Positions 8,868 to 57,500 of a stretch of 64,000 bases of DNA are shown one piece after another. Origin of the DNA: a virus; the IMG/VR virus record IMGVR_UViG_3300046168_000070, positions 96,001 through 160,000 of that record. One strand, 5' to 3'. How positions within the stretch are numbered: position 1 is the stretch's first letter; the number at the start of each line of letters is the position of its first letter. The translations under genes and the position numbers were made by a program. A model generated the notes under the pieces. That model did not search any database. It was not told the DNA's origin and saw nothing but the letters and a program-made list of their open reading frames with translations.

Positions 8868-9464
8868 TTATACAGAACCTGTGGGGAATGCTGCAGAAGA
8901 AACTCCAGCAACATCTGCACAACTTGTGACTTTAACAGTAAAGTCGTGAACATTTAATCCTGAGTCAGGTAAGTCAACATTTACTTGGAATACAAAATCA
9001 CCAGAACCAGTATTCAAGTCTAAAGCATGAGTTAAGTGAATTGATTTGTTTTTATAATAGTCTTCGGGTTCGCCGCTATGATAGATATGAAAATTTTGCA
9101 CTTTTTCCCAAGTTGGACTCACTCCAGCTCCTGTAAATGCTATATTTGCATCCCCAGAGAATACTCCGCTTCCAGTTGCCGACTGGTTTAAGTTGATATC
9201 CCAATCTAAAATATAATCACCAGAATACAAAGTTAAAGCGTCAACTGTATTCAGATCTCCTGTAGTCCCTTCGCCAGATCCACCTATGACAGAATCATCA
9301 TCGAAAATAGCCTGTCTAACTCCTAATAATTGACCTCCAAGATATTTTGGCTCAATTGACTTTGTTGCCATTGTGGTTCCGTCTCCAACAATTACAGGAA
9401 CTCTGGAGTAAGAATTAATGTCTGATCCTGACGCTGTTAAAAGTTCTGATATTTTAGTACCCAT
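8868..9464 (-). CDS. Short fibre/tip protein with N-terminal KISEL motif
   Basis: MGTKISELL..RVPVIV..TKSI N-terminus; beta-rich C-terminus. Confidence 0.6.
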   Translation of the reverse strand: MGTKISELLTASGSDINSYSRVPVIVGDGTTMATKSIEPKYLGGQLLGVRQAIFDDDSVIGGSGEGTTGDLNTVDALTLYSGDYILDWDINLNQSATGSGVFSGDANIAFTGAGVSPTWEKVQNFHIYHSGEPEDYYKNKSIHLTHALDLNTGSGDFVFQVNVDLPDSGLNVHDFTVKVTSCADVAGVSSAAFPTGSV

Positions 9465-9483
9465 AATATGGTTTACACTACTT

Positions 9484-10728
9484 TCAGCATATTTCTACCT
9501 CTAAAGTTTCTCCGCCCTCTGTGTTTATTTGAGTCCCATTTTCTCTAAGTAAGCTGCATAAGTCTATTTCAATTGATTCGCCGCAAGTTTCTATATCTAA
9601 ATATACTCCATCTTCAGTATAAATTGGAAATTCATCTTCTTGTAGTAAGCTACAGAAATCAGGACACAATTCAACATCTATCGTTTGATTATCTTCTGCA
9701 TTAAGGCTATCACCATTTTCTTGGGCTATAGAACATATATTAAAAACATTAACAGATCTAGATACTGTACTAAAACCTCCATCAAAATCAGTCACGCTAT
9801 AAACAACTGAATAATTATTTAATATAGATGTATCTACTGTATTTTCTATAGTTATTCTGTTTGTAATATCACCATCGTCTTTATCAAACGCAACTGCACC
9901 TGCATCAATATAAGTCGATCCTTGAGGTGCATTGACTATAGGGCTACCAAGCAAACTAATAACAGGAGGGTTATTAATAACAACTACAGTTCTACTTACA
10001 GATGATGTCAACCCACCAGAATCAGTTACCTGATAAGATACTTCATATACTCCGTTAACATTAGTATTCACGTTACTTGTTGTAATTATTGAGCTGGTTA
10101 AATCTCCGTCTTCAGGATCGTTTGCCGTTGCGCCTGCATCATTATAGGGCACTCCATTAAAATTTTGCACAAAACTGCTTCCAATAACCGTTATGGTCGG
10201 CGGCTCATTCCATTCCACATTGACCGTTACTTCCATACTTTCCCTTCCAGCGTAATTATCAGCAAAAACAGTAAACGCTATTTCAATATCATCTCCAGCA
10301 CTATAACCTAAATCACCTAAATTAATAGTACCTTGCAATAATCCTGTATTAGAATTAAATGTAAGACCAGCAGGATAATTAATAGCAATATATAAAAATG
10401 GATAATTAATATCACCAATCATATTATCAGCTACAATTTGATAAGAAAAATTAAATTCTCTACTATTAGTTTCAATATTAATAATTGAATCAGATGTTAT
10501 GTTAGGAGGTGTTGCTTTAACTATTCCTCTAAATTCAGAAAACCGATAGGTTTTGAAGGTACTTCCCTCAGGAGCCAGTAACCCAATAGATGTACCTTGA
10601 TCGTTAAGTTCATTCGGCATCTTATATGGCGCGCTCCATCCAGCAATACTGGATGTACTAACTTTTTTAGAATTATTTTCTAAAAAACCACTAATTTCAG
10701 AAAACTTTATTTCCCCTTGGTCAAACAT
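9484..10728 (-). CDS. Adhesin-like virion protein: FSEF-type N-terminus, Ig-like (He_PIG-like) domain, two DUF5011/HYR-like domains, acidic LLxEDG repeats
   Basis: GEIKFSEIS..RFSEFRG; PAGLTFNSNTGLLQGT; PPTIT..YNDAGATANDPEDGDLT..Y.V.Y.VTD twice. Confidence 0.75.
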   Translation of the reverse strand: MFDQGEIKFSEISGFLENNSKKVSTSSIAGWSAPYKMPNELNDQGTSIGLLAPEGSTFKTYRFSEFRGIVKATPPNITSDSIINIETNSREFNFSYQIVADNMIGDINYPFLYIAINYPAGLTFNSNTGLLQGTINLGDLGYSAGDDIEIAFTVFADNYAGRESMEVTVNVEWNEPPTITVIGSSFVQNFNGVPYNDAGATANDPEDGDLTSSIITTSNVNTNVNGVYEVSYQVTDSGGLTSSVSRTVVVINNPPVISLLGSPIVNAPQGSTYIDAGAVAFDKDDGDITNRITIENTVDTSILNNYSVVYSVTDFDGGFSTVSRSVNVFNICSIAQENGDSLNAEDNQTIDVELCPDFCSLLQEDEFPIYTEDGVYLDIETCGESIEIDLCSLLRENGTQINTEGGETLEVEIC

Positions 10729-10895
10729 GGGAATTCTTTTTCTATTATTTTAATTAATGGCTTAAGGTTCCCAGATTTTATGTAGTCTGCAGGATAAGCT
10801 CCTTTTAACTTCTTATTTGGTTCTCCTAACCACATAGCCGCATCACGCGGACCTAAGTGCTCGCATAATCTTTGGAAAATTTGAAATTTATTCAT
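10707..10895 (-). CDS. Stand-alone MbcA/ParS/Xre-type antitoxin toxin-binding domain (DUF2384-like)
   Basis: AAMWLGEPNKKLKGAYPADYIKSG matches A..WL..PN..L.G..P pattern. Confidence 0.6.
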   Translation of the reverse strand: MNKFQIFQRLCEHLGPRDAAMWLGEPNKKLKGAYPADYIKSGNLKPLIKIIEKEFPCLTKGK

Positions 10896-10934
10896 TATAA
10901 TTAATTACACTAGTGTAAAATATATTTAAATAAC

Positions 10935-11663: not shown

Positions 11664-11684
11664 TTGTGTATATCTTTGTATACG

Positions 11685-12251: not shown

Positions 12252-12284
12252 TTGAATTTTATTTAATTAATTATATAATTAACT

Positions 12285-17740: not shown

Positions 17741-17807
17741 AAGTTAAAAGTAACTTTAAAAGTAACTTTTTTTACTTATTATAATATATAGGTGTAATTC
17801 TCGACAA

Positions 17808-26649: not shown

Positions 26650-27156
26650 CTAAATTACCTTGGCTACCACCTTTATTTGTTGAGTATTCCAATTTTTCCA
26701 ACCCCAATTCCCGTTAGCCTCAAGTTTTATAACACCATACGAAGGAAGTTGAACCGTAACTGTATTCGCTTCTATGCCTTGTATTTGTGCGCCCCAAAAT
26801 TGCGCCCCCAAGGAAGTGGGGGGATTAGTCGGTTGTAAATCTACTCTTACAGAGTTTCCACCGCCATCTGTATCTCTGGCGAACAACGAAAATATAAGAT
26901 CGTCAGTGCCTAAGTTATGGGTAAAAGATAGGGTGGCGTTATTAGCTACAAAAGTAAGACCAGCATAGTTAACCCATCCGCTGCTCCAGCCTGCTGAGTT
27001 TGATGAGTTTGATGAGTTCGATGATACATATGTGAGCAAGTCTGAAATTTTTACATTCTGAGTAGTCCCGTCTGCCTTAGCTACTAACAACAAATCATTT
27101 TCACCTATTGAAGATGTTGTATTTAAATCCCTTACTTTTATACTTTCGATTGACAT
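26650..27156 (-). CDS. Short fibre with KISEL-like N-terminus and THNLG-type tip
   Basis: IKVRDLN..DLLLVA..QNVKISDL; SFTHNLG. Confidence 0.6.
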   Translation of the reverse strand: MSIESIKVRDLNTTSSIGENDLLLVAKADGTTQNVKISDLLTYVSSNSSNSSNSAGWSSGWVNYAGLTFVANNATLSFTHNLGTDDLIFSLFARDTDGGGNSVRVDLQPTNPPTSLGAQFWGAQIQGIEANTVTVQLPSYGVIKLEANGNWGWKNWNTQQIKVVAKVI

Positions 27157-28523
27157 ATCTTTTCTAATTCTTTAATTCTTTTTTCTTGATCTTTTATACA
27201 CTCTATTAGTAATGGTATTATACTATTATATTTTACACTTTTAAAGCCATTTTCTTTATCTTTTACAGCTTCTGGCAAAACAAGCTCTACTTCTTGAGCA
27301 AGCACACCGTAATCTTTACCAGAATATTTTGGCTGCATTTCTTCTTTCCAGTCAAAAGATATTCCATTTATTTGTTTTATTTTATTTATCGGACTATCTA
27401 TTGTTTGGATGTTTTCCTTAAGTCTTTGGTCAGAGGCGCTATAGTATGCAACAACATCATTATAACAGAGCAGGTCTCCACTGGCGTCAATTTCTACACT
27501 CTTACTTCCTGATGTATAAAAACATATACTATCTAAATCTGAACTTTCTTCTGTTGTTATATAAGTATCATTGTCTGCATCGGATATTCCTGTTAATAAG
27601 TCTGTGGTTGCGAAATCTCCCGTTTGACCCGTAGTGACAAACACACCAGTTTCTCCAGTAGTTACAAAATCTCCCGTTTGACCTGTAGTGACGAAAACGC
27701 CAGTTTCTCCAGTACTTACAAAATCTCCTATTTCTATTCCAGTTAATACGGGAACACCGCTAATCGTGAGTTCTTGGCTGAAGCCTCCTATTTGTCCTGT
27801 TGTGGTGCCAAAAATTCCACTAGTTCCTTTAAGATTATACCCACTAATATCGCCTGTGGTGGAGATATCAGTCACAGATTCTACAAACATTTCTCCTGTA
27901 ACATAAAGATTTCCTCCAATAGCTAAATCTCCAGTAACTCTAAAATCATGAAAAAATCCACTGGCACCACTCAATTGTTCTTCTGAATATATTAAATTAG
28001 AGCTTCCTGTGAATGATGAGCCGCTTTTGTATTGAATTGAGAAGTCGGGCCCACTAACGGTTGTCGTGGAGTTAGAAAATGGAGACCATGCGTTATTGAC
28101 GTAACCTTCAAATTGACCAAGTTCTGTATTGTATCTCATTAAGCCATTTGTTGGAGTTGGTCTTTGGGCGGATGATCCTGCGGGGAATTTAATCCCATCA
28201 GATGTAAAGATTCCTAATCCGTAATTTATCGGAGCAGAAAGATTTAATGGATTTATATTAATCCCTGATTTATTTACAATTGCAGGAGTAAGTCCGTCGC
28301 AAGTTATCGAAGCAGTATTATCTCCAGTGTGAACGCTAAATTTGGTGTCGCCATCTAGATCTTCTATCTCTATATATTTTTTTAATTTATTTATAGATAT
28401 TTTTGAAGTCCGTGCGGCGTTAGAGGTTTCAGCGCCTGATTCAGTTATGACTAAAAAATCAGTTGATTCATTTGTGAAATCATCTGAAAATGTAGGTAAA
28501 CCTCTTATTTTAACATTAGCCAT
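27138..28523 (-). CDS. Tail fibre with C-terminal peptidase S74 intramolecular chaperone
   Basis: SASDQRLKENIQTI..KIKQINGISFDW..YGVLAQEVE.VLPEAV..VKYNSIIPLLIECIK. Confidence 0.85.
   Translation of the reverse strand: MANVKIRGLPTFSDDFTNESTDFLVITESGAETSNAARTSKISINKLKKYIEIEDLDGDTKFSVHTGDNTASITCDGLTPAIVNKSGININPLNLSAPINYGLGIFTSDGIKFPAGSSAQRPTPTNGLMRYNTELGQFEGYVNNAWSPFSNSTTTVSGPDFSIQYKSGSSFTGSSNLIYSEEQLSGASGFFHDFRVTGDLAIGGNLYVTGEMFVESVTDISTTGDISGYNLKGTSGIFGTTTGQIGGFSQELTISGVPVLTGIEIGDFVSTGETGVFVTTGQTGDFVTTGETGVFVTTGQTGDFATTDLLTGISDADNDTYITTEESSDLDSICFYTSGSKSVEIDASGDLLCYNDVVAYYSASDQRLKENIQTIDSPINKIKQINGISFDWKEEMQPKYSGKDYGVLAQEVELVLPEAVKDKENGFKSVKYNSIIPLLIECIKDQEKRIKELEKICQSKV
27610..27728 (-). repeat. 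9-aa (27-bp) tandem repeat FV(S/T)TG(E/Q)TG(V/D), four full copies plus a partial
   Basis: FVSTGETGVFVTTGQTGDFVTTGETGVFVTTGQTGDFATT. Confidence 0.85.
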
Positions 28524-28535: not shown

Positions 28536-28769
28536 TTACACTTTTACAATTGATCCATTTTTATAATAAAGTTTTTCTTTATCATCGCTTTTATTTCGTA
28601 TAATATTTTCTACATTAATATATTCAGAATCATCTACCACTATAACTTTTATTTCATCTTTATTGTGTGATTTATCTATATATTGTATGGCATCTAATCT
28701 TGGCTTTTTTGATTCAGCTGGAAATGCAAAAATAATTTGATCATTTTTGTTTATGAATAAATGTATCAT
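28536..28769 (-). CDS. Small protein, possible fibre assembly factor
   Basis: 77 aa between adhesin and fibre genes. Confidence 0.5.
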   Translation of the reverse strand: MIHLFINKNDQIIFAFPAESKKPRLDAIQYIDKSHNKDEIKVIVVDDSEYINVENIIRNKSDDKEKLYYKNGSIVKV

Positions 28770-29773
28770 CCTATTGTGCCTTTTAAGGTAGTGGAAGTAA
28801 AGTTTCCATTATTCAAAGTATTTGAGTTTATTGAAAAGCCATTCTTGCGTAATAAGTGCCCCGCAGCTCCTCCACTTCCCGCATTCCCAAACCCTGCTTT
28901 AGCTAAATCTCCACCAGGCATAGGGGCAAATGTATCATCAGAAAAAAGCGTTCCAGGAGCCCCGCCATTTATAGCGGTCCCATCATTTCCATTAGCGTTC
29001 CCAAAGCCGCCTTTTCCTGCAAATATGCCAGCGCCTCCACCACCCCCGCTGTAAAGAGAGCCAGACCCACCTCCTCCGCCACCAAAAATACTTCCGCCAT
29101 TATTTTCAATTTCAACATTATATTGCAAGCTAATTGCATCTCCACCATCTTTGCCATTTATGTCTGTGTTATAATTTAATGCATTTCCACCATCTCCTCC
29201 CGCTCCATAAATCAAGCCTTCATTAATAATTTTAATGTAAGAGTTATTTTCCCACCCAGAGCCTGTTTGTAAGGCGGGCAAAGAACTATCTTTGGAATAT
29301 ACTACTCCTCTATTTATAAATATAATGGCTTCAGCTTCTGTAGTGTATCCTCTAGTTTGGAATAAAATTGACCTTAGATTAACGTTAATTAATGTAGTCG
29401 CATTAATAATATGTATTGCTACAACAGACGTATTTCCATTTTCATTATCGCTAACTAAATTATCACCGTCATCTGTCTCTAACCAGCCATCATCAGAGCG
29501 CTCAAGTAATGTAGGGTAATCATCTTCTCCGTCTGCAATCAGATAATATCCAGGATTAGCATCCATAAATTCAAATTCAGAAAACTTAAAATCAGCGCCT
29601 AGCGAAAACCCGCTTAATGTTTGCCCATCATCACCTATCCTTGGGAACGATGAATTAAATGCAAAATTAGATATATCTCTGGTAGATAGAGAAGATGTGA
29701 GGTTTAATCCTCCAGCCTCACCCCTTATTCTCCCTAAGGAAATTGGTGAAGATTTGGAATTTATTTTGGTCAT
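28766..29773 (-). CDS. Glycine-rich gp38-like adhesin
   Basis: PISLGRIRGE..FKFSEFE N-terminus; IINEGLIYGAGGDGG, GGGGGGSG, GGGGGAG, GSGGAAG motifs. Confidence 0.75.
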   Translation of the reverse strand: MTKINSKSSPISLGRIRGEAGGLNLTSSLSTRDISNFAFNSSFPRIGDDGQTLSGFSLGADFKFSEFEFMDANPGYYLIADGEDDYPTLLERSDDGWLETDDGDNLVSDNENGNTSVVAIHIINATTLINVNLRSILFQTRGYTTEAEAIIFINRGVVYSKDSSLPALQTGSGWENNSYIKIINEGLIYGAGGDGGNALNYNTDINGKDGGDAISLQYNVEIENNGGSIFGGGGGGSGSLYSGGGGGAGIFAGKGGFGNANGNDGTAINGGAPGTLFSDDTFAPMPGGDLAKAGFGNAGSGGAAGHLLRKNGFSINSNTLNNGNFTSTTLKGTIG

Positions 29774-30345
29774 AATAGTTGAGTATAGAGCCCATAATTC
29801 GAAGGGTTTGCTACCGTTCCGTTATTAATTAAAATAATTTCTGAGTTTGCGGGCCAACTTGATTCCTGCAAATATAAATTTTCAATGTCACCATTATTTG
29901 TGAACTCGTAAAAAACCCTTGCATACGGGAATCCAAAATTTCTACAAAATTCAGCAAATAAATACACTTCACCGTCGCTAGAACTTTCTGATTTATGTTT
30001 TATGATAGTTTCATTTCCTACTTTATCATCAGTTCTTAAAATTCTACCATTGTCATCTGTAATCAAAAAAGCTCCCGTATCTTTTATCCTGCTGGAGTGG
30101 GGCTGCGAGCCGTCTTCAAACTCAGAGATTAAGAAGTTATTGTCATCATATCCGTCAAAGTTATAGAATTCGGAAAATTTAATCTTTTCATCTGCAAAAT
30201 TAGGAGCATTGACATCTCCCGTTCTATATTCATCTGCCAATTTTTCTTGTATAAATTTGTCTTGCTCAGATAGCCGCCCAAAACCATAAGAACTTTCACC
30301 TATAATTTCGCTGAAAGAAATCGGCCCTGAAGACGGAAGTGTCAT
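29770..30345 (-). CDS. gp38-like attachment-domain protein lacking the Gly-rich domain
   Basis: MTLPSSGPISFSEI..KIKFSEFY; ends just after SWPANSEIILINNGTV. Confidence 0.65.
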   Translation of the reverse strand: MTLPSSGPISFSEIIGESSYGFGRLSEQDKFIQEKLADEYRTGDVNAPNFADEKIKFSEFYNFDGYDDNNFLISEFEDGSQPHSSRIKDTGAFLITDDNGRILRTDDKVGNETIIKHKSESSSDGEVYLFAEFCRNFGFPYARVFYEFTNNGDIENLYLQESSWPANSEIILINNGTVANPSNYGLYTQLL

Positions 30346-33304: not shown

Positions 33305-36300
33305 CCATCATTCTCTGATTTCATGTGAATCAAGTATTTTTGATTAGAATCTAAGTTGTTTATTGAGTATGATAGATCGTTAGTGGAAACCTCGGTATAG
33401 TTGCTAGCCCCTTCTTTTTTATAATATATAATATAATTATTAGCTGATAATACTCTAGCCCATGATAAATCAACAGAATCAACTCCCACGGATCTTATAT
33501 TTAAATTTGGAGCACTAGGAAAAGTTAAAAAGTCTCCAGAAGAAGAAAAGGAAGAATAACCGAAGTTGTTTTTTGCTCTTATTTTATAAAAATATTTTTT
33601 ACCTGGATCTAAATTTTCAATTACTTCAGATATCGAAGCAGTTAAAAAATCTTCATTATAGCCCTGTTCAAATGAGGAAAAATTAGGCTCCTGTGATAGT
33701 AATAAATTATATTCATCGGCGTTTAGAGAAGCTGCCCAGGACAAGGTTATACCATAGTATGTACAGTTTGATGTTGAAGGCTTACTTGGCGTCGATGGCA
33801 TTGACTCGGTTAATACATTTATAGTGGAAGAGTTTTGGCTTAACCCACATCCTAAATTTTTAGCTCTGGCTCTAATATAATATCTCGTATTGGGGGATAG
33901 CCCAATAACAGGAATAGAGGTGTCGCTTGTCTCTTTAGACCTAAAGTCTGAAATAAAGTTTGAAAAGTTTGAATTAGTTGATATATCTATTTCATATGAT
34001 ATTACCGAAGCTGGTTCGGATAGGGCGATATTAAAACTATTAGCCGTGACATTAGAGGAAGTTAAGGTTGGGGAGCTGGGAAAAGTTAAGACTAATTCTG
34101 GATCAGAATATTCTGTTGATCCATATTGATTAAAAGCTTTTATCCTATAATAGTATTTTGTTCCTGGATCTAAGTTGGTAATATTAATTGACAAAGAAGA
34201 AGTACGGAAGCTAGTATTGTAAGAACCGACAAAAGAAGAGAAATTAATATCTTCAGATAAATTAAACTCATATTGTGTAGAATTTGGATCTTTTACCCAA
34301 GATGCAGTGAACCCATAATAAGAGCAATTTGATGGAGGATTTAATCCTTTAAGTGAAGACTTTGACGGAGTAATTTGAGAAACAACATTACTATATGGAC
34401 TTTTCCCACAATCACCATCAGATGATCTAACTCTAAAATAATATTCTGTTTTTTCTTGTAAATTGTTTAATGAAATATTATTTGCTGACAACTCAACTCC
34501 CGCATAGTTACTTATTAGGGGGCTCATTGTTTCTGATTTTGATAGATCGAATATATATTTAACTCCACCGCCCACAGACCCCCAAGATGCGTTGAATGAA
34601 TTAGGGGTTGCTGAAGAAGCTGATAAATTAGTTGGTGTTGCAGGCGCCGTACAATCAGATCCAGTTTCTGAATTTTGAGATGCGCCGCAATCGTTAACAG
34701 CTCTAATTCTATAGATATAGTTTTGCCCAGCCGTTAATCCTGTCACCTTTAGAGAATTCTCTTCAACCGATTTTGAATTATAGCCTGTCAAATTGGGGTT
34801 AAAATTATTTGATTGTAGCGATACATCAACTTCATAACTTTCTGCTCCATCAGTATTATTCCATTTTAAAAGTATTGAGTCCTGTTCTGTAGAGGGCGAT
34901 TCGATAATTAGTGGAGCAGGAGGTATGGTTACTTTAAATTTATCAAAAGAATAGTCTCCTTGCCCTGTAGGATTAATTGCCCTAACTCTGTACCAATATT
35001 TTTTTCCAGCTAGCAAATTTGTTACGTCATAACTATTAATTGAAGAGGTTTTCGTTAAACTGTATACTGGAAAACCATTTGCATCAACCGCGCTAGTATA
35101 TTGTATCTCATATTCAGAAGCTCCAGTTATATTAGGCCAGGATAAAGTAAATCCATAGAAATCGCATTGAGTTGCTGATATATTGGTTACTTGTTTTGGT
35201 ATGAGGGTTACTGATTCTGGGGAAGTTCCTGAAGTTTCTCCGCAGTCATTATCTACATGTAAAACTACGGAGTATGTTTCGCCTTGCTCTAAACCAGTAA
35301 TTTCCATTGAGGTATAATGAGTTTTCTTCCTATCATATCTGATGAGCGGAGCAGAAGACCCATGTTTGAAAACTGAAACCATATAACCATTATTCAGTCT
35401 TGACGGATCCCAGTTCAGCATGAATTCAGTTTCTAAAATATTTGAGAATCTAATATTTGTGGGCTGGGGTGATCTAGTTTGGTTTTTAAATATTTCAGAA
35501 TTGAAACTTGTTCCAGAATTATTAACAGACCTTACTCTAGAATAGAAAACTTTACCTGCATCTAGCTCTTGAATTAAATAGTTATTTGTAGTAACAAGAT
35601 ACGAATCTAAAACTAGACTGGCAAAATTAGGATCGTTAGATAAATCTAATAAATAATGATTAGCTCCTTTTGAAGCTGTCCAATTCAACTTAAACCCAAA
35701 ACTAGGAGAATCTTGACAGTTCGAAAAGCTAGTAATTTCTGGATTGGCAGGAATAGTTATAGTCTCAACAACGTTAGACCATTGCGAATATTCTCCATAT
35801 TCATTTTTAGATCTTATTCTATAATAATAAACAGTACCTGGCTCAAGAGCGCATAACTCATATGAATATGTAATTTGCAGATTACCGTCTCCCTGGAAGC
35901 GCATTTTATCTAAAACTTTATTATTATTATTGAAATAAGGATCTTCTTTAGAAACATCAAGTTCGTATTCATGGTCTATAACAAAACCTTTCCAATTTAA
36001 GGTAAAGCAGGACTGAGTTTGGCTCGTAGCTAATTTAGCTTGAGGTCTATACACTTGGATAGTCGGCTCTCGACATTGCCTGTCGGGCTCGGGACCAATT
36101 TCTACGTCGTCTAACTCTGCTGAGAGGCTTCCAGAAATTATTGATTCATCGAGAAAATTATAATAACCTTGATATGATAAAGAAATCTCTAATTGTTCAT
36201 TTACTGATGCGCTTATGTTTTCACCTATGAGTCGTGCATTAGGTATATTGTAAGAACCAATAACTGATGTGTTGTCAGAGTTTTTAACTAAAATAGAAAG

Positions 36301-37158
36301 ATCTTTTTTATGCGGGCTAGTGTTTTGTATTAAGTAATCAAAAACATTTTTAGCTTCATAATCATCAATATGTAATACTATTTCAGCGTTAACCTCGTAA
36401 GGAGGTATAGCTTGCACTTCAACAGGCCTATCTTTTCCAACTACATAAATAGGCTCTCTTGGGGTAGAAAGAGTATAAGAAAAACTTTGTACGCGATTAG
36501 TTTCTGTACCGAACCCAGAAATATGTATAGATCCTTGATCTGGTATTTGAATAATTTCTCCATCTTCCTCGGGGTGCAAAATTGGAGTGGCCGACCTAGG
36601 ATGGTCTCCAGATAAACCAACCCATCCGTAATCTAACCATTCTATGGCGTCTAGCTTTACTGAATCTTGATCCCTGACTACTCCAGTAGTTAATATCCCA
36701 GTTTCGACATACTGCTTAACTAACCCAGTTTCGGTATGATGTAAAGTTGTGTTATAATTTTTAACTTTATTTTTTGCTAATGTGCGAGATCCTCCTCCTA
36801 TATTTCCGTAAACAGCAATGTCGGCAGAAACTGAAGGTATGGCTCCTACAGAACAAGAGACAGAGTAATCCTGTAAATAGCCACTAACAAAATCAAAGCT
36901 AGTTCCATTATAATAAATTCCACCGTTGAACCCTAATTCACCAGTATAATTTAATAACGGATCTCTTGTAATCAAACTTCTCTCTATGGAAAAATTACCT
37001 TGAAGAGGTTGAGTAACTAAGCTATCAAAATATCCGTGACCTAAAACATTAAGGGGCTCTTCATTTATTTGATAGCCGCCATCTATTGCTGTAACGCCAG
37101 AGACTTCATAGTTTTCTATAAAAAACTTTTGTTCGTAATTAAAATTTGCTCCGTTCAT
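33178..37158 (-). CDS. Tail-tube-fold N-terminal domain plus 10 FN3 domains
   Basis: N-terminal ~340 aa with RVQSFSY..REPIYVVG; ten FN3 repeats; last 25 aa out of pattern. Confidence 0.8.
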   Translation of the reverse strand: MNGANFNYEQKFFIENYEVSGVTAIDGGYQINEEPLNVLGHGYFDSLVTQPLQGNFSIERSLITRDPLLNYTGELGFNGGIYYNGTSFDFVSGYLQDYSVSCSVGAIPSVSADIAVYGNIGGGSRTLAKNKVKNYNTTLHHTETGLVKQYVETGILTTGVVRDQDSVKLDAIEWLDYGWVGLSGDHPRSATPILHPEEDGEIIQIPDQGSIHISGFGTETNRVQSFSYTLSTPREPIYVVGKDRPVEVQAIPPYEVNAEIVLHIDDYEAKNVFDYLIQNTSPHKKDLSILVKNSDNTSVIGSYNIPNARLIGENISASVNEQLEISLSYQGYYNFLDESIISGSLSAELDDVEIGPEPDRQCREPTIQVYRPQAKLATSQTQSCFTLNWKGFVIDHEYELDVSKEDPYFNNNNKVLDKMRFQGDGNLQITYSYELCALEPGTVYYYRIRSKNEYGEYSQWSNVVETITIPANPEITSFSNCQDSPSFGFKLNWTASKGANHYLLDLSNDPNFASLVLDSYLVTTNNYLIQELDAGKVFYSRVRSVNNSGTSFNSEIFKNQTRSPQPTNIRFSNILETEFMLNWDPSRLNNGYMVSVFKHGSSAPLIRYDRKKTHYTSMEITGLEQGETYSVVLHVDNDCGETSGTSPESVTLIPKQVTNISATQCDFYGFTLSWPNITGASEYEIQYTSAVDANGFPVYSLTKTSSINSYDVTNLLAGKKYWYRVRAINPTGQGDYSFDKFKVTIPPAPLIIESPSTEQDSILLKWNNTDGAESYEVDVSLQSNNFNPNLTGYNSKSVEENSLKVTGLTAGQNYIYRIRAVNDCGASQNSETGSDCTAPATPTNLSASSATPNSFNASWGSVGGGVKYIFDLSKSETMSPLISNYAGVELSANNISLNNLQEKTEYYFRVRSSDGDCGKSPYSNVVSQITPSKSSLKGLNPPSNCSYYGFTASWVKDPNSTQYEFNLSEDINFSSFVGSYNTSFRTSSLSINITNLDPGTKYYYRIKAFNQYGSTEYSDPELVLTFPSSPTLTSSNVTANSFNIALSEPASVISYEIDISTNSNFSNFISDFRSKETSDTSIPVIGLSPNTRYYIRARAKNLGCGLSQNSSTINVLTESMPSTPSKPSTSNCTYYGITLSWAASLNADEYNLLLSQEPNFSSFEQGYNEDFLTASISEVIENLDPGKKYFYKIRAKNNFGYSSFSSSGDFLTFPSAPNLNIRSVGVDSVDLSWARVLSANNYIIYYKKEGASNYTEVSTNDLSYSINNLDSNQKYLIHMKSENDGCGTSQASSDKVSQRNLQRVQFQASQKLIASREGSRLIGQPL

Positions 37159-48255: not shown

Positions 48256-48317
48256 AAGCCTTTCCTTTTACCTTAATTAAAATTACACGATTTTCTTTTA
48301 ATGTGTAATAAAATATA

Positions 48318-50631: not shown

Positions 50632-50756
50632 AAAATTTTAAATTAATAACTAATTAAATTAAATAAAATTTAAGAATCTTACAGGAAAGATAAATAAAAA
50701 TTTCCCAAAAAACAAAAAAAAATGTAATCGAGCATATCATCTAATATTTTTTTATT

Positions 50757-51944
50757 ATGGCTAGAAACAGAGTTATATACCAAAGTGAAGCGTTATTCGT
50801 CAGTCCAAATTCTACGGGCTATCATTTTTCTGGAGAAGATTCAGCAGGAATTTCGATGGCTACTGGAATCCTTGGAGTAGGAGGAACGCATGTAAGAGAT
50901 TCGGGCAATATGGTGTCCCAGTTAAGTCGGGTACAGAGTGCGAATTATAGTTTTACAATTAATAGGACCGATATCAATGAATTTGGAAGATTGGCGCGTA
51001 TCGACGCTTTGATTACCGAATCTCCAACGGTATCTTTAGACTTTACATATTATCCAATCGATGGAAAGAACGAGGCATTGCTTAAGTTCGAAACCGACGG
51101 AACGACTAACTGCATTAAAAACCACCTTAACGACACAGTTGGTTCAAACTTTTTTATCCAAACAACTGCAGAAGGTACTGATGTTGCTGGTAATACAGAA
51201 GCTGATAGCACAAAAACTACAATTGGTTTAGGAAACGGATTCTTGTCTGATTATACATTTGATGCTTCTGTCGGAAGTATTCCTACGGCCAGTGTTACAA
51301 TTGAAGGTTTCAACATGAAGGCTGATCAAGGGGTCACAGGTAATAATATTCCAGCAGTTACTCTTGAGGATGGAAGTCCTATTGATGAAATTCAGTATAG
51401 CTTACCTTCTGGTAGTACTGGAGATCATGGTCTCGCGGCACTTCGTCCTGGTGACTTAAAACTTCTTTTCCCATCAGACTCAGCTTTGATTACTAATACA
51501 TCTGGAGAAGGCGGCGGAACTGCGGCTCACGTTCAAAGTGTTAGCTTTAATATCCCAATGTCAAGAACTCCAATTGAAAGACTAGGTAGTGTATTCCCTT
51601 ATGTTCGTGTGCCTGATGTGCCATTGAATGCAAGTTTTACAATTAACGCTTTAGTGGCAGATATTGGAACTGGAAACCTTGCTATTTTAATTGACAACGA
51701 AGAAAAGCAAGAACTAACTGTAGAAATGACTAACCCAGCAGATAATAGTAAGACTATGTCATTTACTATCAAGGGAGCCTTACTAGACTCAGAGTCATTT
51801 AGTTCGGATATTGGAGGCAACAAAACTGTAGACATGACTTTCACAACTCAGGTCGGTGGTCCAGAAGATACTGAAAACGGTGTTTTCATCTCAGGTATGT
51901 ATGATACTAATTATCTCCCTGACTATAGTAACGTCACGCAATAG
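50757..51944 (+). CDS. Major tail tube protein
   Basis: Internally duplicated RVQSANYSF..RTDINEFG / HVQSVSFNI..RTPIERLG; followed by terminator. Confidence 0.75.
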   Translation: MARNRVIYQSEALFVSPNSTGYHFSGEDSAGISMATGILGVGGTHVRDSGNMVSQLSRVQSANYSFTINRTDINEFGRLARIDALITESPTVSLDFTYYPIDGKNEALLKFETDGTTNCIKNHLNDTVGSNFFIQTTAEGTDVAGNTEADSTKTTIGLGNGFLSDYTFDASVGSIPTASVTIEGFNMKADQGVTGNNIPAVTLEDGSPIDEIQYSLPSGSTGDHGLAALRPGDLKLLFPSDSALITNTSGEGGGTAAHVQSVSFNIPMSRTPIERLGSVFPYVRVPDVPLNASFTINALVADIGTGNLAILIDNEEKQELTVEMTNPADNSKTMSFTIKGALLDSESFSSDIGGNKTVDMTFTTQVGGPEDTENGVFISGMYDTNYLPDYSNVTQ

Positions 51945-51976
51945 CCTTAATTTAGAGATGTAATCTCTTAACTATA

Positions 51977-52003
51977 AAAACACCCCGAAAGGGGTGTTTT
52001 TTT
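51977..52003 (+). terminator. Intrinsic terminator
   Basis: AAAACACCCC-GAAA-GGGGTGTTTT plus T-tract. Confidence 0.9.
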
Positions 52004-52020
52004 ATTGTGTAAATATATGT

Positions 52021-54492
52021 GTGAAAGGTAAAATATCATATGAATCAGCTGGAATACTAATAGGTCCGTCGCCAGCCTTTTCTCCGCATACGGGAGAAGA
52101 TAGCTATTGTATGATGGATCAGGTTAATAGAGTCCAGGATGCTAATTTTAGTTTTTCTATAGAAAGACAAGACATAAAGCAAATTAATTCTTTTACGATG
52201 GCTGATAGGAAAGTAGTTTCTCAGCCAGAGGTTAATTTAAGTTTTTCTTATTTATTAACGAATTCATTTAATGAAAGAAAATTTGGATTTCATATTGGAG
52301 ACGAAGAAAACTATTCCGCAATAAAAAATTTTTATGATAAAACTGTAGAAGATAGAAATTTATTTTTTTTAATAACAAATCGAGAAGGTAGACATTTAGA
52401 GTTTGCCACTAATATACATGAAGAAGCTTATAGAGATGAGCCTTTTACAGCCTCTATTGGCGCAGCTACTCAAGAGAATGAGATTGATGCTGATGTAAAA
52501 ATGTATGATTTTAAAGATTATGATATCATTGGATTTGGAAATAGTTTCCTAACAAATTATTCCGTTTCAGCTGCTATAGGCTCTTATCCTTCAGCTAGCG
52601 TTGATTGGTCTTGTTGTAACATGAAGTTCGATAAACAAGATGAATCTGAAAATATCACAAGAGGAATATCAAGTTCGCAAACTTTTACAGGTTGCCTTTC
52701 TAATATAGTTAAGCAAGGAGGGCAGGAGATGGCGGGCCCTGAATCACTAGGCCAAGAAGTTATCATTTATAATAATGCAGTTAATGATGGAAGTCAAACA
52801 TATTTTTTTGATAAAGAAGATAGCGCTTTAGTTTTAATACATCCAGATTGCGTAAGAAAAAGAGGTAAATGTAATAATTTAATAGATCCAGAAAAGTTCT
52901 CATTCGAATATGATGTTTCTTTGCCTGTTTCTCTAAATAGGGATCAGTTTGATAGATCTGAAAAAGAAAGGCATTTTAGGGTGGAGGTAGATCTGGATAT
53001 AGGAGTATTTGATGAAGAGGGCGCTTTTATTCAAGATGCAGATTTCACTTTATCTGATGTAGAGGTTTTTTTAGTGAAAGAAAATGAGTCAGGAAAAATT
53101 AAGAAATTAATACATGAATATGGGCAAGGTTATGGATACAAAAAATTTAGGGTTAGAAACGTAGAAAATCAAATAAAAATCTTTTGGGATGATCATGACG
53201 CTGGTCATCTTGACTTGAGTGCGTTTATGGATAGTGATGTAAAAGCTACTTGGTCTTTGCATATATCTTCTTTTGCTGGCGGAAGATTAAATGAATTTAA
53301 TGTTTCAGCTGTGGTTCCAATATATCATGATATACCAGCCATCAATAGACAAACTGGCGATATTGCGAATAGGCCGAAATACAATATTATAGCTAATGAT
53401 TTTATTTATCCAGAACATATAAACGCGCTATTGCCAGGAGATGTCGTTTTAGAGTTGGAAAATCCTAATGTAGGTGGTACTAAATTATTAAATGATGATA
53501 ATAGTGTTAATATTCAGTCTTTCCAGATGGAGATACCTCTTGCTAGGGAAAATTTATTTAAATTAGGATCTAGATATGTTTGCGATAGAAAATTATTATT
53601 TCCACAATTACCAACTATCTCTATAACATTAATTGTTGATAAATTACTACAAGGAGAGTTGCATCAAATATTTAATAGAGACAAAAAATATAATTTTAAT
53701 ATTAAATTAAAGAAAAATTTTGAAAAAGCTAATGCTTTGCCAGGTAGTCCACACTATATTGAAAATGAAAAAATATACGAGTCAGATTATTCAAAAACTT
53801 TAATTGAGGGTAATTGTGACAATTCAAATAAAGCTGGAGATTGGGTGGGGACAGAAGTTACTCAAGGTAGATATTATAAAAATTTACGGCATGAAGGTGG
53901 TTGGATCTATTATTCAGAAGATGACTCTCAGAGAAGAATTTCAGTTAACTATATGGGTACAGTTTTTAAAATAGTGAATCCAGAAGATCAGATTGCCCCT
54001 TTTCTCTTAGTGACAACGAAAGATATCCCTGCAAACTATAAGATGAGAATTTTAGAGAGTGGCGAATATGCACAAACTGTATCTAAGGAAGATGGTATTT
54101 ACAAAAGGAAAAGCGGTAAATATATAGGATCAATTAAAGATGAAGCTGCTGATAAAAATGCATGCGAAGATCGAAAAGTTTATTTAGGGGTAGATCGATA
54201 TGAAGACCCAAGGTATTTTGGGAATGAAAATGAAGAATCCGTTAGGGAAGATTTTATAATATACAAAATAAGGGGAGCTAAATTAGTCTCTCAAGATTAT
54301 ACTTTAGGTTTGTCTGATATGATGGAGTGTAATTTGAGTTTTGATTTCGAAATATCACCTGAATATGGATTTCATATACAAGGAGCGGGAGAACCTATAT
54401 CTCAAGAGCATAACTTTTTAATATTTCAAGAAGATCAACCTTTTATGATTACTATGGAAGATTCCGACTTGCCTATTTCTTTAAGGAGCTAA
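52021..54492 (+). CDS. Tail-tube paralogue with large insertions (start revised to GTG 52021)
   Basis: KISYESAGILIGP, RVQDANFSF..RQDIKQI, IQSFQMEIP..RENLFKLG align with 50757; acidic C-terminal motif. Confidence 0.7.
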   Translation: MKGKISYESAGILIGPSPAFSPHTGEDSYCMMDQVNRVQDANFSFSIERQDIKQINSFTMADRKVVSQPEVNLSFSYLLTNSFNERKFGFHIGDEENYSAIKNFYDKTVEDRNLFFLITNREGRHLEFATNIHEEAYRDEPFTASIGAATQENEIDADVKMYDFKDYDIIGFGNSFLTNYSVSAAIGSYPSASVDWSCCNMKFDKQDESENITRGISSSQTFTGCLSNIVKQGGQEMAGPESLGQEVIIYNNAVNDGSQTYFFDKEDSALVLIHPDCVRKRGKCNNLIDPEKFSFEYDVSLPVSLNRDQFDRSEKERHFRVEVDLDIGVFDEEGAFIQDADFTLSDVEVFLVKENESGKIKKLIHEYGQGYGYKKFRVRNVENQIKIFWDDHDAGHLDLSAFMDSDVKATWSLHISSFAGGRLNEFNVSAVVPIYHDIPAINRQTGDIANRPKYNIIANDFIYPEHINALLPGDVVLELENPNVGGTKLLNDDNSVNIQSFQMEIPLARENLFKLGSRYVCDRKLLFPQLPTISITLIVDKLLQGELHQIFNRDKKYNFNIKLKKNFEKANALPGSPHYIENEKIYESDYSKTLIEGNCDNSNKAGDWVGTEVTQGRYYKNLRHEGGWIYYSEDDSQRRISVNYMGTVFKIVNPEDQIAPFLLVTTKDIPANYKMRILESGEYAQTVSKEDGIYKRKSGKYIGSIKDEAADKNACEDRKVYLGVDRYEDPRYFGNENEESVREDFIIYKIRGAKLVSQDYTLGLSDMMECNLSFDFEISPEYGFHIQGAGEPISQEHNFLIFQEDQPFMITMEDSDLPISLRS

Positions 54493-54511
54493 AATAGTGT
54501 AATTTTAAAAA

Positions 54512-57500
54512 ATGGCAGGAAATAGAAAAATATCTCAACTATCAACATATTCTGGGTATGTTGCGCCTAAAGATTTATTTATAACTGCTACCCAGAGTAC
54601 TCCTGTAAGGAATAAGCAAATATCATTTTATGATGGTGGCCCAGATGGTCATAATTTAATATCTAGTATTCAGAAAGCAGGTAATTTTGTATCTACAACT
54701 GGAGTTGAGCAAATACATGGAGATAAATATTTTAGGAATAATATAGATGTAAGAAGAAATGTAATAATTCATGGAGAAGATGATCCAGGAGAACATTCTG
54801 AAGATGCTTTATATGTATATGGTAATATAATTAATTCTGGAATAGATGTTTTAACATATGAGTCTAGTGATAATTTATGTATTGATATTCCAGTTGGAAA
54901 TGTATCTCAGATTAATTCTAGAGGAGTTAGTAATTCATTTAATGTAGATGGTCACTTAGGAGTATATCCTGCTCGAGTTGATGATCAAAGCATATTTAAC
55001 TATTACCCTATAGAAAAAGTACAAGTATTTTTTGAAATAGCTGAATATAAAAACGATGATTTTATAAGAGTTTGGTCAGGAGTTAACCCTGTTACATTTG
55101 ATACTGATCCTATTCATTATCAAACTAAAACTCCTGGATTAATAGATTCTACCGATGGTGCCGTAGGCTATCCACAACAAGAAATAGATTTTAAAGAAAA
55201 AAGTAATGTTGACGGATTATTTATAAAAATAACTTCTCCTGAAGGTACTGAATCTGAAGTTTATAATCATTTTCAAGGGTTAGATTACCAAAGAGATCAT
55301 GCAGTGTTTAAAGATGAACAGGGAGTTGGAACTTGGAAGTTAACTTTGATAGATGAGTGTGGAGATGTTATTGATGGCCAACTTAAAAAATGGTGGATAA
55401 AAATACATAGACGACTTGGCATTACTGAATTAGGGCATAACAATGACACGACAGGTATTGATGCAATAAATATTGGTCAAAGCAACTCAAACTATGCTGA
55501 GTCGGGATCTATATATGGAAGAGAAAATATTAATTCGGGTTATAACGCTTTTGTTGTTGGAGACTCAAATAAGCATACGGCTTTGGCTAGAATCTCAGAC
55601 ACATTTGGAAGAGGGAATCATATTGATACAACTGGTGCAAGTACTTTTGGTAGTGGCAATTTTGTGACAGGAGAGTACTCTTCTACTGTAGGTTACGGCA
55701 ACGACATTACTATTTCTGGAGTAAGAGCTCATACGATTGGTATAGAAAACGTAGCCAACGCAGAAGATTCTGTGATGGTTGGTAGCGGTAATGAGAATAA
55801 CGCTGCTGACAGCATGACGGTAGGTTACGGAAACTTGAACGAGGATGATGCTGATGGTTCACATGTATTTGGTAGAATAAACACTTCGGATTCATTTAGA
55901 GCAACTACGGTTGGTAGTGGTAACTTTGTAAGCGGAGACTATGCGTCAACTGTAGGTTATGGCAATGATGTAACCACGGCTGGAGTAAGAGCTCATACGA
56001 TTGGTATGGAAAACGTAGCCAACGCAGAAGATTCTGTAATGGTTGGTAGCGGTAACGAAAACAACGCTGCTGACAGCATGACGGTAGGTTACGGAAACTT
56101 GAACGAGGATGATGCTGATGGTTCACATGTATTTGGTAGAATAAACACCTCCGATTCATTTAGAGCAACTACGGTTGGTAGTGGTAACTTTGTAAGCGGG
56201 GACTATGCGTCAACTGTAGGTTATGGCAATGATGTAACCACGGCTGGAGTAAGAGCTCATACGATTGGTATGGAAAACGTAGCCAACGCAGAAGATTCTG
56301 TGATGGTTGGTAGCGGTAATGAGAATAACGCTGCTGACAGCATGACGGTAGGTTACGGAAACTTGAACGAAGATGATGCTGATGGTTCACATGTATTTGG
56401 TAGAATAAATACCTCCGATTCATTTAGAGCAACTACGGTTGGTAGTGGTAACTTTGTAAGCGGGGACTATGCGTCAACTGTAGGTTATGGCAATGATGTA
56501 ACCACGGCTGGAGTAAGAGCTCATACGATTGGTATGGAAAACGTAGCCAACGCAGAAGATTCTGTGATGGTTGGTAGCGGTAACGAAAACAACGCTGCTG
56601 ACAGCATGACGGTAGGTTACGGAAACTTGAACGAGGATGACGCTGATGGTTCACATGTATTTGGCAGAATAAACACCTCCGATTCATTTAGAGCAACTAC
56701 GGTTGGTAGCGGTAACTTTGTAAGCGGAGACTATGCGTCAACTGTAGGTTATGGCAATGATGTAACCACGGCTGGAGTAAGAGCTCATACGATTGGTATG
56801 GAAAACGTAGCCAACGCAGAAGATTCTGTGATGGTTGGTAGCGGTAACGAAAACAACGCTGCCGATAGCATGACCGTAGGCTACGGAAACTTAAATAAAT
56901 CTGACGCAGACGGCTCTCATGTATTCGGAAGAAAAAATACTTCCGACTCTTTTAGAGCAACTACGGTTGGAAGTGGTAATATAAATAGCGGCGATTATTC
57001 AATGATTGCTGGGTATGGAAATAAAAATAATTCTGATGATTCAATTATTGTCGGTTATGGAAATTTTGTAGATCTAGATGGAGATACATCTAATGTTTTT
57101 GGAAGATCTAATGAGATTTATTCTCCTTTTTCAACTGCTGTCGGCATAGATAATATCATAAGCGGGGAAAGCGGCGCGGCTTATGGCAACTTAAATACTG
57201 TAACAGAAAAGGGAGATAACACTTTAATATTTGGTATCGGGAACACTGGTAATGCAGAAGATTGTGTTATTCTCGGTAAGGAAAATGTGATTAATTCTGC
57301 AAATTCTGTTATTGGTGGATATAGGAATTATACTGATTCTACAGCTGCCGACATAACTATATTTGGTAGAAAAAATAAAGTTGAGTCAGCTACTTCCGTA
57401 AGAACAATGGGTAGCGGTAATAGGGCTTTGGCTGATTTATCTAGTACTTTTGGTAACGCTAATTTGGCGGATACTAAAGCTACATTTGGGAATATTTTTG

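What the first reader, a model, noticed from the sequence alone, without database searches (positions are those of the whole stretch)
8868..54560. Candidate 'plug-and-socket' grammar for a branched, daisy-chained tail-fibre system
Seen: three short motifs recur across otherwise unrelated virion proteins. (a) PLUG is an N-terminal K(I/V)(S/R)xL motif in 8868 (KISEL), 26650 (KVRDL), 27138 (KIRGL), 30342 (KISDL) and 54512 (KISQL). (b) SOCKET is an acidic LLx(E/Q)D..x(E/Q)(D/N)G repeat. It ends 9484 (LLQEDEFPIYTEDG, three pairs), 31145 (LLKQDEFPIVQQNG) and 52021 (LIFQEDQPFMITMED), and lies mid-protein in 28766 and 29770. (c) CAP is a gp38-like ISFSEI..FSEF N-terminus in 9484, 28766 and 29770. All three genes with a C-terminal socket are immediately followed by a plug gene (9484->8868, 31145->30342, 52021->54512), and all three CAP proteins also carry sockets. 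Established: gp38-type adhesins attach to fibre tips, and S74 chaperones are cleaved from fibre C-termini. Inference: tube/FN3 socket -> plug fibre -> CAP adhesin with new socket -> next plug fibre, a recursive branched receptor-binding tree.
Basis: partly seen in the sequence, partly recalled or inferred. Interest (0 to 1): 0.85.

Follow-up and report, generated by a model that had tools for sequence, protein, structure and literature searches.

The report
Docking tags joining phage tail fibres
This 194-kb uncultured phage marks its tail-fibre proteins with three short tags, and in hundreds of unrelated phage contigs an acidic repeat at the end of one tail protein is followed about 100 times more often than expected by a fibre gene starting with a small "KISxL" domain. 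The pair therefore looks like an undescribed snap-together joint for host-binding fibres, although binding itself is not shown.

Summary
All three motifs are real. PLUG is the start of a ~42-residue, strictly N-terminal domain. Exactly five ORFs in the 194-kb genome carry it, and so do >1000 protein clusters elsewhere; no Pfam model or solved structure covers it. SOCKET is a divergent form of the widespread LLxEDG-type acidic repeat. In an IMG/VR sample chosen only for that repeat, 25 of 49 C-terminal cases were followed by a plug gene, against 22 of 2154 control ORF ends (odds ratio ~100, P=3.5e-32). CAP starts GP38-type adhesins, and genes after S74 fibres begin with it far more often than chance (7/41 vs 2/1089).

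Corrections:
- Gene 31145 is the frameshifted C-terminal part of the J-like central fibre.
- 52021 is a T5-type tube paralogue.
- The mid-protein "sockets" of 28766 and 29770 are weak.
- CAP plus socket was not seen outside this lineage.

Best reading: J tip→30342, tube paralogue→54512 and 9484→8868 are docking joints, and CAP proteins cap the S74 fibres. Binding is inferred only from genomics, and the full recursive tree is unproven.

Earlier first-stage notes of this scan recorded LLLEDG boxes on other DNA but did not pair them with a plug. Other plug-and-socket codes it reported use different motifs.

The parts
33178..37158 (-). N-terminal two thirds of the J-like central tail fibre/hub protein, with FN3 repeats
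   Evidence: phrog_31 'central tail fiber J' E=9.6e-48; Pfam fn3 and Ig_J_second. It is continuous with 31145 in relatives.
31145..33304 (-). C-terminal third of the same J-like protein (FN3 x5). It is separated from the rest by a frame change near 33276-33285.
   Evidence: tblastn of the 2003-2005-aa J ORFs of L001/L002 switches from frame 1 to frame 3 there; Pfam fn3 E=1.4e-38.
31148..31219 (-). SOCKET at the extreme C-terminus of J (LLKQDEFPIVQQNGDFILLE...)
   Evidence: It is conserved in L001 and L002. The plug gene starts 17 nt downstream.
30342..31127 (-). Short S74 fibre with a PLUG N-terminus (plug = 30993-31127)
   Evidence: Peptidase_S74 E=6.9e-14; plug profile hit 66 bits at residues 1-45.
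29770..30345 (-). CAP protein 1 (CAP = 30151-30345). A weak acidic repeat lies at about 30016-30078.
   Evidence: GPISFSEI at residue 7 and KFSEF at residue 56. It overlaps the stop of the S74 fibre gene by 4 nt. No Pfam or PHROG family.
28766..29773 (-). CAP protein 2, a GP38-type glycine-rich adhesin (CAP = 29564-29773). A weak acidic repeat lies at about 29438-29548.
   Evidence: phrog_11439 E=1e-18 and phrog_2056 'host specificity' E=2e-9. PF05268 is precomputed for it and its homologues.
27138..28523 (-). Second S74 fibre with a PLUG N-terminus (plug = 28389-28523)
   Evidence: Peptidase_S74 E=2.1e-16; plug alignment A1.
26650..27156 (-). 168-aa PLUG protein (plug = 27022-27156)
   Evidence: In the AlphaFold2 model, residues 1-45 have pLDDT 71-88 and form a turn, a beta-hairpin and a helix.
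9484..10728 (-). CAP + three Ig-like domains + three C-terminal SOCKET repeats (CAP = 10519-10728; sockets = 9487-9732)
   Evidence: Bact_surface_Ig-like E=3.2e-33 and He_PIG. In the AlphaFold2 model the Ig core 71-331 is confident, while residues 1-70 and 332-414 have pLDDT below 50. Family members vary at the C-terminus.
8868..9464 (-). 198-aa PLUG protein (plug = 9330-9464), 19 nt after 9484
   Evidence: In relative G001 the same slot holds a different 428-aa plug protein.
50757..51944 (+). Probable major tail tube protein with an internal duplication
   Evidence: ESM Atlas look-alike clusters carry Phage_tube_2 and Baseplate_Tube_p140 (scores 0.96-0.98). This is a lead only; there is no Pfam, PHROG or PDB hit.
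52021..54492 (+). Tube paralogue with inserts and a C-terminal SOCKET variant (54409-54489, LIFQEDQPFMITMED)
   Evidence: BLASTP to 50757 E=2e-19. The orthologue in G001 keeps the C-terminus and the plug gene that follows.
54512..62779 (+). 2755-aa fibre with a PLUG N-terminus (54512-54646) and two arrays of an 88-aa repeat
   Evidence: The 264-nt repeats have 5 and 9.2 copies at 93-97% identity.

Best explanation
The three motifs are portable assembly tags of virion fibre proteins.

(1) PLUG is a ~42-residue, strictly N-terminal anchor domain with consensus MA(N/D)xKISxLTxL...DVLPIVD.SA..TKKIT..L. It heads otherwise unrelated distal modules: S74 fibres, glycine-rich adhesins, YadA-head-like repeats and small beta-sandwich proteins.

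(2) SOCKET is a run of two or three acidic repeat units of the type h-h-x-(E/Q)-(D/N)-(G/E), presumably beta-strand/turn units. Unrelated tail components display it. The fibre encoded just downstream most likely docks its plug on it.

In this phage that gives three joints:
- the C-terminal tip of the J-like central fibre holds the short S74 fibre 30342;
- the tube-paralogue ring protein 52021 holds the 2755-aa side fibre 54512, by analogy with the T5 collar;
- the Ig-like protein 9484 holds the small protein 8868.

A J trimer would offer three such repeat blocks. Monomeric 9484 offers three tandem Cys-flanked repeats, which could form a pseudo-trimeric seat for a trimeric plug.

(3) CAP is the N-terminal module of GP38-type adhesins and adaptors that sit on S74 fibres after C-terminal processing. 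Proteins 29770, 28766 and 9484 would therefore cap fibres 30342 and 27138.

Shown here: the domains, their distribution and the adjacency statistics. Inferred: the physical contacts, the stoichiometry and which cap sits on which fibre.
For: Plug domain. A profile of the five N-termini plus orthologues found 1006 clusters at E<=1e-3 among 1.84 billion representatives. In 149 of the best 150 the match starts at residue 1. Their C-terminal parts are diverse: Peptidase_S74, Gly_rich_2 and YadA_head.

Adjacency, socket-selected sample. This sample was chosen blind to plugs. Of 49 clusters of C-termini with at least 2 units, 25 are followed within -90..+150 nt by a hit to a plug profile that was iterated without adjacency information. 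The control was 22 of 2154 ORF ends, giving an odds ratio of about 101 and P=3.5e-32. By eye, several of the 24 clusters counted as 'not followed' are stray-frame ORFs with no LLxEDG repeat. At least four more are followed by N-termini that look plug-like but missed the profile (L158, L176, L258, L265). The true share is therefore probably higher.

Adjacency, plug-selected sample. Of 50 plug clusters, 14 have an upstream-adjacent C-terminus with at least 2 units, and about 9 more do by eye.

Locus-level co-occurrence. 54 of 119 socket-selected loci hold a plug gene, against 0 of 22 S74-selected fibre loci.

Unrelated hosts. Sockets are found in J-like proteins, in an insertion in lambda gpL-like tip proteins that the solved gpL (8iyk_L) and the F2-pyocin protein (25vf_7) lack, in a tail tube protein (L050, phrog_158) and in tiny proteins. 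The repeat is the only element these hosts share, and the plug is the only element the downstream proteins share.

Within the lineage. The joints are kept while the distal parts change: in G001 the 9484 orthologue is followed by a different plug protein. Members of the 9484 family either end in 1-3 socket repeats or carry long fused distal domains with no socket.

CAP. It follows S74 fibre genes in 7 of 41 cases against 2 of 1089 controls (odds ratio 112, P=1.7e-9). It also starts distant GP38-family homologues of 28766.
Against: No direct evidence of contact exists. The window's sockets are not significantly similar to the canonical LLxEDG profile, so their membership rests on pattern, position, conservation and adjacency.

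About half of the plug genes are not preceded by a socket. They follow S74 fibres, collar-type proteins or J, as in cultured cyanophage KBS-S-2A. Some socket C-termini are followed by genes that are not plug genes.

Many sampled contigs are related to one another. Clustering reduces this non-independence but does not remove it.

The AlphaFold2 model of 9484 gives no confident structure for its CAP and socket ends.
Confidence: 0.55

Rival explanations
1. Both tags are real, but they are not partners. The acidic repeat is a general surface or oligomerisation element of tail-tip and adaptor proteins, or it binds a third virion component. The plug docks somewhere else. The adjacency only reflects conserved gene order inside tail modules.
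For: About half of the plug genes have no adjacent socket. Sockets also occur internally or at N-termini and before genes that are not plug genes. Nothing shows contact.
Against: The socket hosts are unrelated and sit in different gene orders, yet the next gene starts with the plug about 100 times more often than after other ORFs of the same contigs. S74-selected fibre loci, which are also tail modules, hold no plug at all.
Confidence: 0.25
2. The acidic repeat is a transient assembly aid. It would nucleate trimerisation or folding of the fibre N-terminus encoded downstream, without staying as a stable joint in the virion.
For: Phage fibres often need neighbouring assembly factors (established knowledge). 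Some socket carriers are tiny ORFs of 44-80 aa with little else. The socket and CAP ends of 9484 are not confidently folded on their own.
Against: In J-like, gpL-like and tube proteins the repeat is part of a structural virion protein. Known fibre chaperones are usually encoded downstream of the fibre gene, not upstream (established knowledge).
Confidence: 0.12
3. The motifs are chance or low-complexity matches among repetitive, acidic fibre proteins.
For: The units are short. The window's sockets are not significant against the canonical profile. The CAP N-termini are not homologous overall.
Against: Exactly five N-terminal plugs occur in 194 kb, and all are in fibre-like genes. The plug profile finds 1006 clusters, with 149 of the best 150 matching from residue 1. 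DEFPI and [KR]FSE[FI] occur only in the named proteins. The adjacency P-values are 1e-9 to 1e-32.
Confidence: 0.02

Closest known systems
Phage T5 tail tip: tube-like p140 ring and p132 collar holding the L-shaped fibres pb1, and pb4 FN3 strings ending in the receptor-binding protein pb5 (from my own knowledge of the T5 structures)
   Same: Both are siphovirus-type tails. In both, a tube paralogue is encoded next to a long side fibre, a J/pb3-pb4-like FN3-rich central fibre carries a separately encoded terminal protein, and the fibres have S74 chaperones.
   Different: No sequence match to T5 proteins was obtained. The tube assignment rests on Atlas look-alikes only. T5 is not known to use a KISxL domain or an LLxEDG repeat.
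T2/S16-type gp37-gp38 fibre tip (Pfam GP38, PF05268)
   Same: A separately encoded glycine-rich adhesin follows the fibre gene. 28766 matches PHROG 'host specificity' families, and PF05268 is precomputed for it.
   Different: The CAP N-terminal motif pair is not the gp38 N-terminal domain as far as sequence searches show: there was no PDB match. Proteins 29770 and 9484 have no GP38 body, and here the fibres end in S74 chaperones.
Crassvirus PhiCrAss001 tail hubs (THA2-THB trimers) docking the N-terminus of the trimeric fibre gp22 (PMC10172136)
   Same: A pseudo-trimeric seat accommodates the N-terminal residues of a trimeric fibre. gp22 residues 28-57 give a marginal match to the plug profile (E=0.016).
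   Different: The match is weak (8 bits with the local profile). The docked residues 1-26 lie before it. I saw no LLxEDG-type repeat in the printed ends of gp38 and gp39, which were shown only in part.
Branched tailspike systems with conserved N-terminal adaptor domains (CBA120 TSP1-4, G7C gp63.1/gp66, Klebsiella jumbo phages; from my own knowledge)
   Same: The logic is the same: a conserved N-terminal anchor, an exchangeable distal receptor-binding part, and several receptor-binding proteins chained on one another.
   Different: Those systems use T4 gp10-like/XD domains. No such Pfam family was found in the window's proteins. The tag pair found here is different and unnamed.

Membership tests
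Peptidase_S74 (intramolecular chaperone) tail fibres | C-terminal PF13884 domain above the curated cut-off | tested here: met
   27138 scores 60.4 bits and 30342 scores 52.3 bits; the cut-off is 22.
Peptidase_S74 (intramolecular chaperone) tail fibres | Autocatalytic release of the chaperone at the conserved Ser | not testable with these tools
   This needs protein expression. It is assumed here by homology only.
GP38 adhesin family (PF05268), tested for 28766 | Match to the family profile | tested here: inconclusive
   My hmmscan listed no Pfam family at E<=0.01. The collection's precomputed table does list PF05268, and PHROG 11439 and 2056 match residues 110-324.
GP38 adhesin family (PF05268), tested for 28766 | Glycine-rich motifs forming the receptor-binding body | tested here: met
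   Runs such as GGGGGGSGS and GGGGGAG lie at residues ~190-300.
GP38 adhesin family (PF05268), tested for 28766 | N-terminal domain that attaches to the fibre tip, as in S16 gp38 | tested here: not met
   No PDB chain matched at E<=1. The CAP motif pair is a different N-terminus, though it recurs in distant PF05268-labelled homologues.
Lambda J-like central tail fibre | Profile match to J and its position after the tape measure protein | tested here: met
   phrog_31 E=9.6e-48 and PF24489 Ig_J_second. The gene follows the 2949-aa ORF 37158-46007.
T5-type tail tube (pb6/p140; Phage_tube_2, Baseplate_Tube_p140), tested for 50757 and 52021 | Profile or fold match to tube proteins | tested here: inconclusive
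   There was no Pfam, PHROG or PDB sequence hit. Only Atlas look-alike clusters, in which 12-15% of members carry these families, support it.
LLxEDG-type acidic repeat ('socket'; unnamed) | At least two units h-h-x-(E/Q)-(D/N)-(G/E) spaced about 8 residues apart | tested here: inconclusive
   A loose regex finds the repeat in 9484, J and 29770. The canonical profile gives at best E=0.47. The copies in 28766 and 51994 fit only by eye.
KISxL N-terminal domain ('plug'; unnamed) | Profile match starting at residue 1 of the protein | tested here: met
   All five window proteins align. P0001 (identical to 30342) scores 66 bits at residues 1-45. Cluster representatives close to 27138 (P0005) and 26650 (P0010, 91% identical) are also among the best hits.

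The most novel reading that the evidence does not exclude
The LLxEDG-type acidic repeat and the KISxL N-terminal domain form a universal two-part connector. Any virion protein that displays three repeat blocks, either one per chain of a trimer or three in tandem in a monomer such as 9484, can then carry any trimeric fibre headed by the plug. Together with CAP adaptors on S74-processed tips, this lets phages such as this one build truly recursive, branched receptor-binding trees: J -> 30342 -> CAP/9484 -> 8868, with 29770 and 28766 holding 27138 and 26650.
Probability: 0.3. Interest if true: 0.8.

Novelty: new variant of a known kind. Interest (0 to 1): 0.62.

Why it matters
Most tail-fibre genes of uncultured phages cannot be placed on the virion. 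Suppose the acidic repeat and the KISxL domain are docking partners. Two short, easily recognised tags would then say which protein carries which fibre in thousands of environmental phages. They would explain how receptor-binding modules are exchanged as cassettes: the joint stays the same while the distal part differs, as seen between this phage and its 203-kb relative. They would also give structural biologists a defined, testable peptide-domain interface that is absent from Pfam and the PDB.

Even without proof of binding, two things are new, usable annotations: the >1000-cluster N-terminal domain family and the roughly 100-fold adjacency rule.

Tried and rejected
- **Complex prediction.** J C-terminal 90 aa x3 with the 30342 N-terminal 70 aa x3 scored 0.01 and 0.00, which the tool reports as 'no answer'. 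This is not evidence either way.
- **Word-index homologue search** with residues 1-48 of 30342 found only near-identical proteins.
I replaced it with degenerate DNA pattern scans.
- **tblastn of short plug proteins against cultured phages** gave nothing for one query. For another it gave only cyanophage KBS-S-2A, which has two tandem plug genes but no LLxEDG neighbour.
- **PDB profile searches for the plug.** The first found nothing. The second found only a marginal crAss001 gp22 match.
- **Foldseek of the 26650 model** gave only weak Ig-like hits to the poorly modelled body.
- **Natural socket-plug fusion proteins** were sought and none was found.
- **Rosetta-stone test.** The distal domains of long 9484 relatives are not homologous to the plug proteins.
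- **Literature string searches** for the motifs returned nothing relevant.
- **PHROG and Pfam scans of nine socket carriers from other phages** found no family except tail tube hits for L050.


Full report
**Setting**

The window is bases 96001-160000 of a single 193,844-bp virus contig. It has a siphovirus-type tail module.

- Leftward from about 48,280 lie two small genes, a 2949-aa tape-measure-size ORF, a J-like central fibre rich in FN3 domains (phrog_31 E=9.6e-48), and then a string of fibre genes.
- Rightward lie a probable tube protein (50757), its 832-aa paralogue (BLASTP 2e-19) and a 2755-aa fibre.
- The large terminase-like protein has only distant relatives among cultured phages, at about 23-25% identity.
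- Two IMG/VR contigs are close relatives: L001 and L002, the latter a 203-kb genome called G001.

**Observation: PLUG**

The regex K[IV][SR]xL in the first 15 residues picks exactly five ORFs in the whole genome: 8868, 26650, 27138, 30342 and 54512. The similarity extends over about 45 residues.

A profile of these N-termini, searched against 1.84 billion cluster representatives, found 1006 clusters at E<=1e-3. In 149 of the best 150 the match begins at residue 1. The consensus is MA(N/D)xKISxLTxL...DVLPIVD.SA..TKKIT..L.

The rest of these proteins varies: S74 fibres, Gly_rich_2, YadA-head repeats, or nothing known. No Pfam or PHROG model covers the domain, and no PDB chain matches its profile. 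The one exception is a marginal match to crAss001 gp22 (E=0.016). In that phage the fibre N-terminus is docked in an A2B tail hub (PMC10172136).

AlphaFold2 models residues 1-45 of 26650 at pLDDT 71-88 as a turn, a beta-hairpin and a helix. Foldseek found no analogue.

**Observation: SOCKET**

Acidic repeats end three proteins:
- 9484, with three Cys-flanked copies;
- the J-like protein;
- the tube paralogue.

Each is followed after 17-19 nt by a plug gene. DEFPI occurs twice in the six-frame genome, both times in these C-termini.

Relatives keep both the C-termini and the adjacency. In G001 the 9484 orthologue has a single degenerate repeat and is followed by a different, 428-aa plug protein.

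Two corrections apply. First, 31145 is the C-terminal third of J: L001 and L002 have one 2003-2005-aa ORF, and the window changes frame near 33276-33285. Second, the mid-protein copies in 28766 and 29770 fit only loosely, and a profile of canonical sockets does not score any window copy significantly.

**Is socket-then-plug general?**

I drew two independent samples from IMG/VR by degenerate DNA patterns.

*Plug-selected sample.* The gene just upstream very often ends in LLxEDG-type repeats. Of 50 plug clusters at 70% identity, 14 have at least 2 units by regex, and about 9 more do by eye.

*Socket-selected sample (pattern LLxEDGxxLLxED).* This sample is blind to plugs. I iterated the plug profile on all ORFs without using adjacency.
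- Of 49 clusters of C-termini with at least 2 units, 25 are followed by a plug hit within -90..+150 nt.
- The control was 22 of 2154 other ORF ends in the same loci.
- The odds ratio is about 101 and Fisher P=3.5e-32.
- By eye, several 'not followed' clusters are stray-frame ORFs with no real repeat, and at least four more are followed by plug-like N-termini that missed the profile. The 25 of 49 is therefore probably an underestimate.

*Locus level.* 54 of 119 socket-selected loci hold a plug, against 0 of 22 S74-selected fibre loci.

*Internal sockets.* The repeat also occurs inside proteins:
- as an insertion in lambda gpL-like tip proteins, absent from the solved gpL and the F2-pyocin protein;
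- about 150 residues before the end of J-like proteins;
- at the N-termini of other tail proteins.

Many of those loci have a plug gene further downstream.

One socket carrier, in L050, is a tail tube protein (phrog_158). This parallels 52021->54512 in the window. Nine socket carriers from other phages have no other Pfam or PHROG family.

**Observation: CAP**

[KR]FSE[FI] occurs four times in all ORFs of the genome, only in 9484, 28766 and 29770. FSEF lies at residues 57-64 of each. Apart from the two motifs, the three N-termini are not homologous.

In loci fetched by similarity to the S74 fibre, the next gene starts with G-x-I-S-(L/F/M)-x-x-(I/V) in 7 of 41 cases, against 2 of 1089 controls (odds ratio 112, P=1.7e-9).

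Protein 28766 matches PHROG host-specificity families, and PF05268 (GP38) is precomputed for it. Its distant homologues begin with the same motif pair, for example SGPLSLDDIQTEFGG...IDLSEYY.

The 9484 family keeps a ~75-residue CAP N-terminus. Its members end either in one to three socket repeats or in long fused distal domains with no socket. These fused domains are not homologous to the plug proteins. None of 23 other CAP-starting ORFs in my loci has a strict socket.

**Mechanism**

The hosts of the repeat are unrelated and share only the repeat. The downstream proteins are unrelated and share only the plug. The simplest explanation is therefore that the plug docks on the repeat.

A J trimer offers three repeat blocks, and 9484 offers three tandem repeats in one chain. 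This suggests a three-fold seat for a trimeric fibre, which is an inference. CAP proteins would sit on the S74 fibres after chaperone release, as gp38 sits on gp37; this rests on established knowledge of T2/S16-type fibres.

No contact is shown. The complex job gave no verdict. AlphaFold2 leaves both ends of 9484 unfolded, with pLDDT below 50, while its three Ig domains are confident.

**Comparison and novelty**

The logic is well known: a conserved N-terminal anchor, exchangeable distal parts and branched receptor-binding complexes. It is seen in the T5 collar, T2/S16 gp37-gp38, crAss001 hubs and the CBA120/G7C adaptors.

The particular pair found here is not in Pfam, PHROGs or the PDB, and string searches of the paper library found nothing.

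Earlier first-stage notes of this scan recorded LLLEDG boxes in tail regions of other genomes without linking them to a plug. Other follow-ups described plug-and-socket codes that use different motifs.

I rate this a new variant of a known kind. The adjacency rule is well supported, and binding is likely but unproven. The full recursive tree rests on 9484->8868 alone.

Noticed in passing
window 33270-33290 (- strand): The J-like central fibre is split into ORFs 33178-37158 and 31145-33304, which overlap by 127 nt. Relatives have one 2003-2005-aa ORF. This could be a sequencing error, a real mutation or programmed frameshifting.
   Followed up: partly
window 50757-54492 (+): 50757 and 52021 are paralogues, and 50757 looks internally duplicated. 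Atlas look-alikes point to T5-type tube proteins (Phage_tube_2, Baseplate_Tube_p140), which suggests a T5-like three-fold tail with a collar ring.
   Followed up: partly
window 55647-56979 and 57785-60203 (+): The 2755-aa fibre holds two arrays of a 264-nt (88-aa) repeat, with 5 and 9.2 copies at 93-97% identity. The 84-aa antisense ORFs listed there are by-products of the repeat.
   Followed up: yes
window 9487-9732 (-): Each of the three socket repeats of 9484 is bracketed by cysteines (…C-SLLQEDEFPIYTEDGVYLDIET-C…), and homologues with two repeats keep them. The repeats may be disulfide-stapled.
   Followed up: no
L149:9061-10035 (-) and relatives L164, L174, L181, L214: Lambda gpL-like tail tip proteins carry an insertion of about 27 residues made of LLLEDG repeats. 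It falls in the unaligned gap (query residues 184-210) between the two stretches that match the F2-pyocin protein (25vf_7). L149 has a plug fibre gene downstream.
   Followed up: partly
L029, L106, L112, L114, L136, L183, L202, L219: In another phage group an S74 fibre gene is followed directly by a plug gene (MADRKISxL...). In several of these loci (L183, L202, L219; also L178, L231) it starts MATHDY... and the J-like protein two genes upstream has an internal socket.
   Followed up: partly
L266 (Cyanophage KBS-S-2A, NC_020854.1) 3324-5387: This cultured Synechococcus siphovirus has two tandem plug-headed 'tail fiber' genes right after its J-like tail protein. It has no LLxEDG repeat there, so it is a possible laboratory model for the plug domain.
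   Followed up: partly
window 28536-28769 (-): A 77-aa ORF of unknown family lies between the CAP adhesin 28766 and the second S74 fibre 27138. It has no PHROG or Pfam match.
   Followed up: partly
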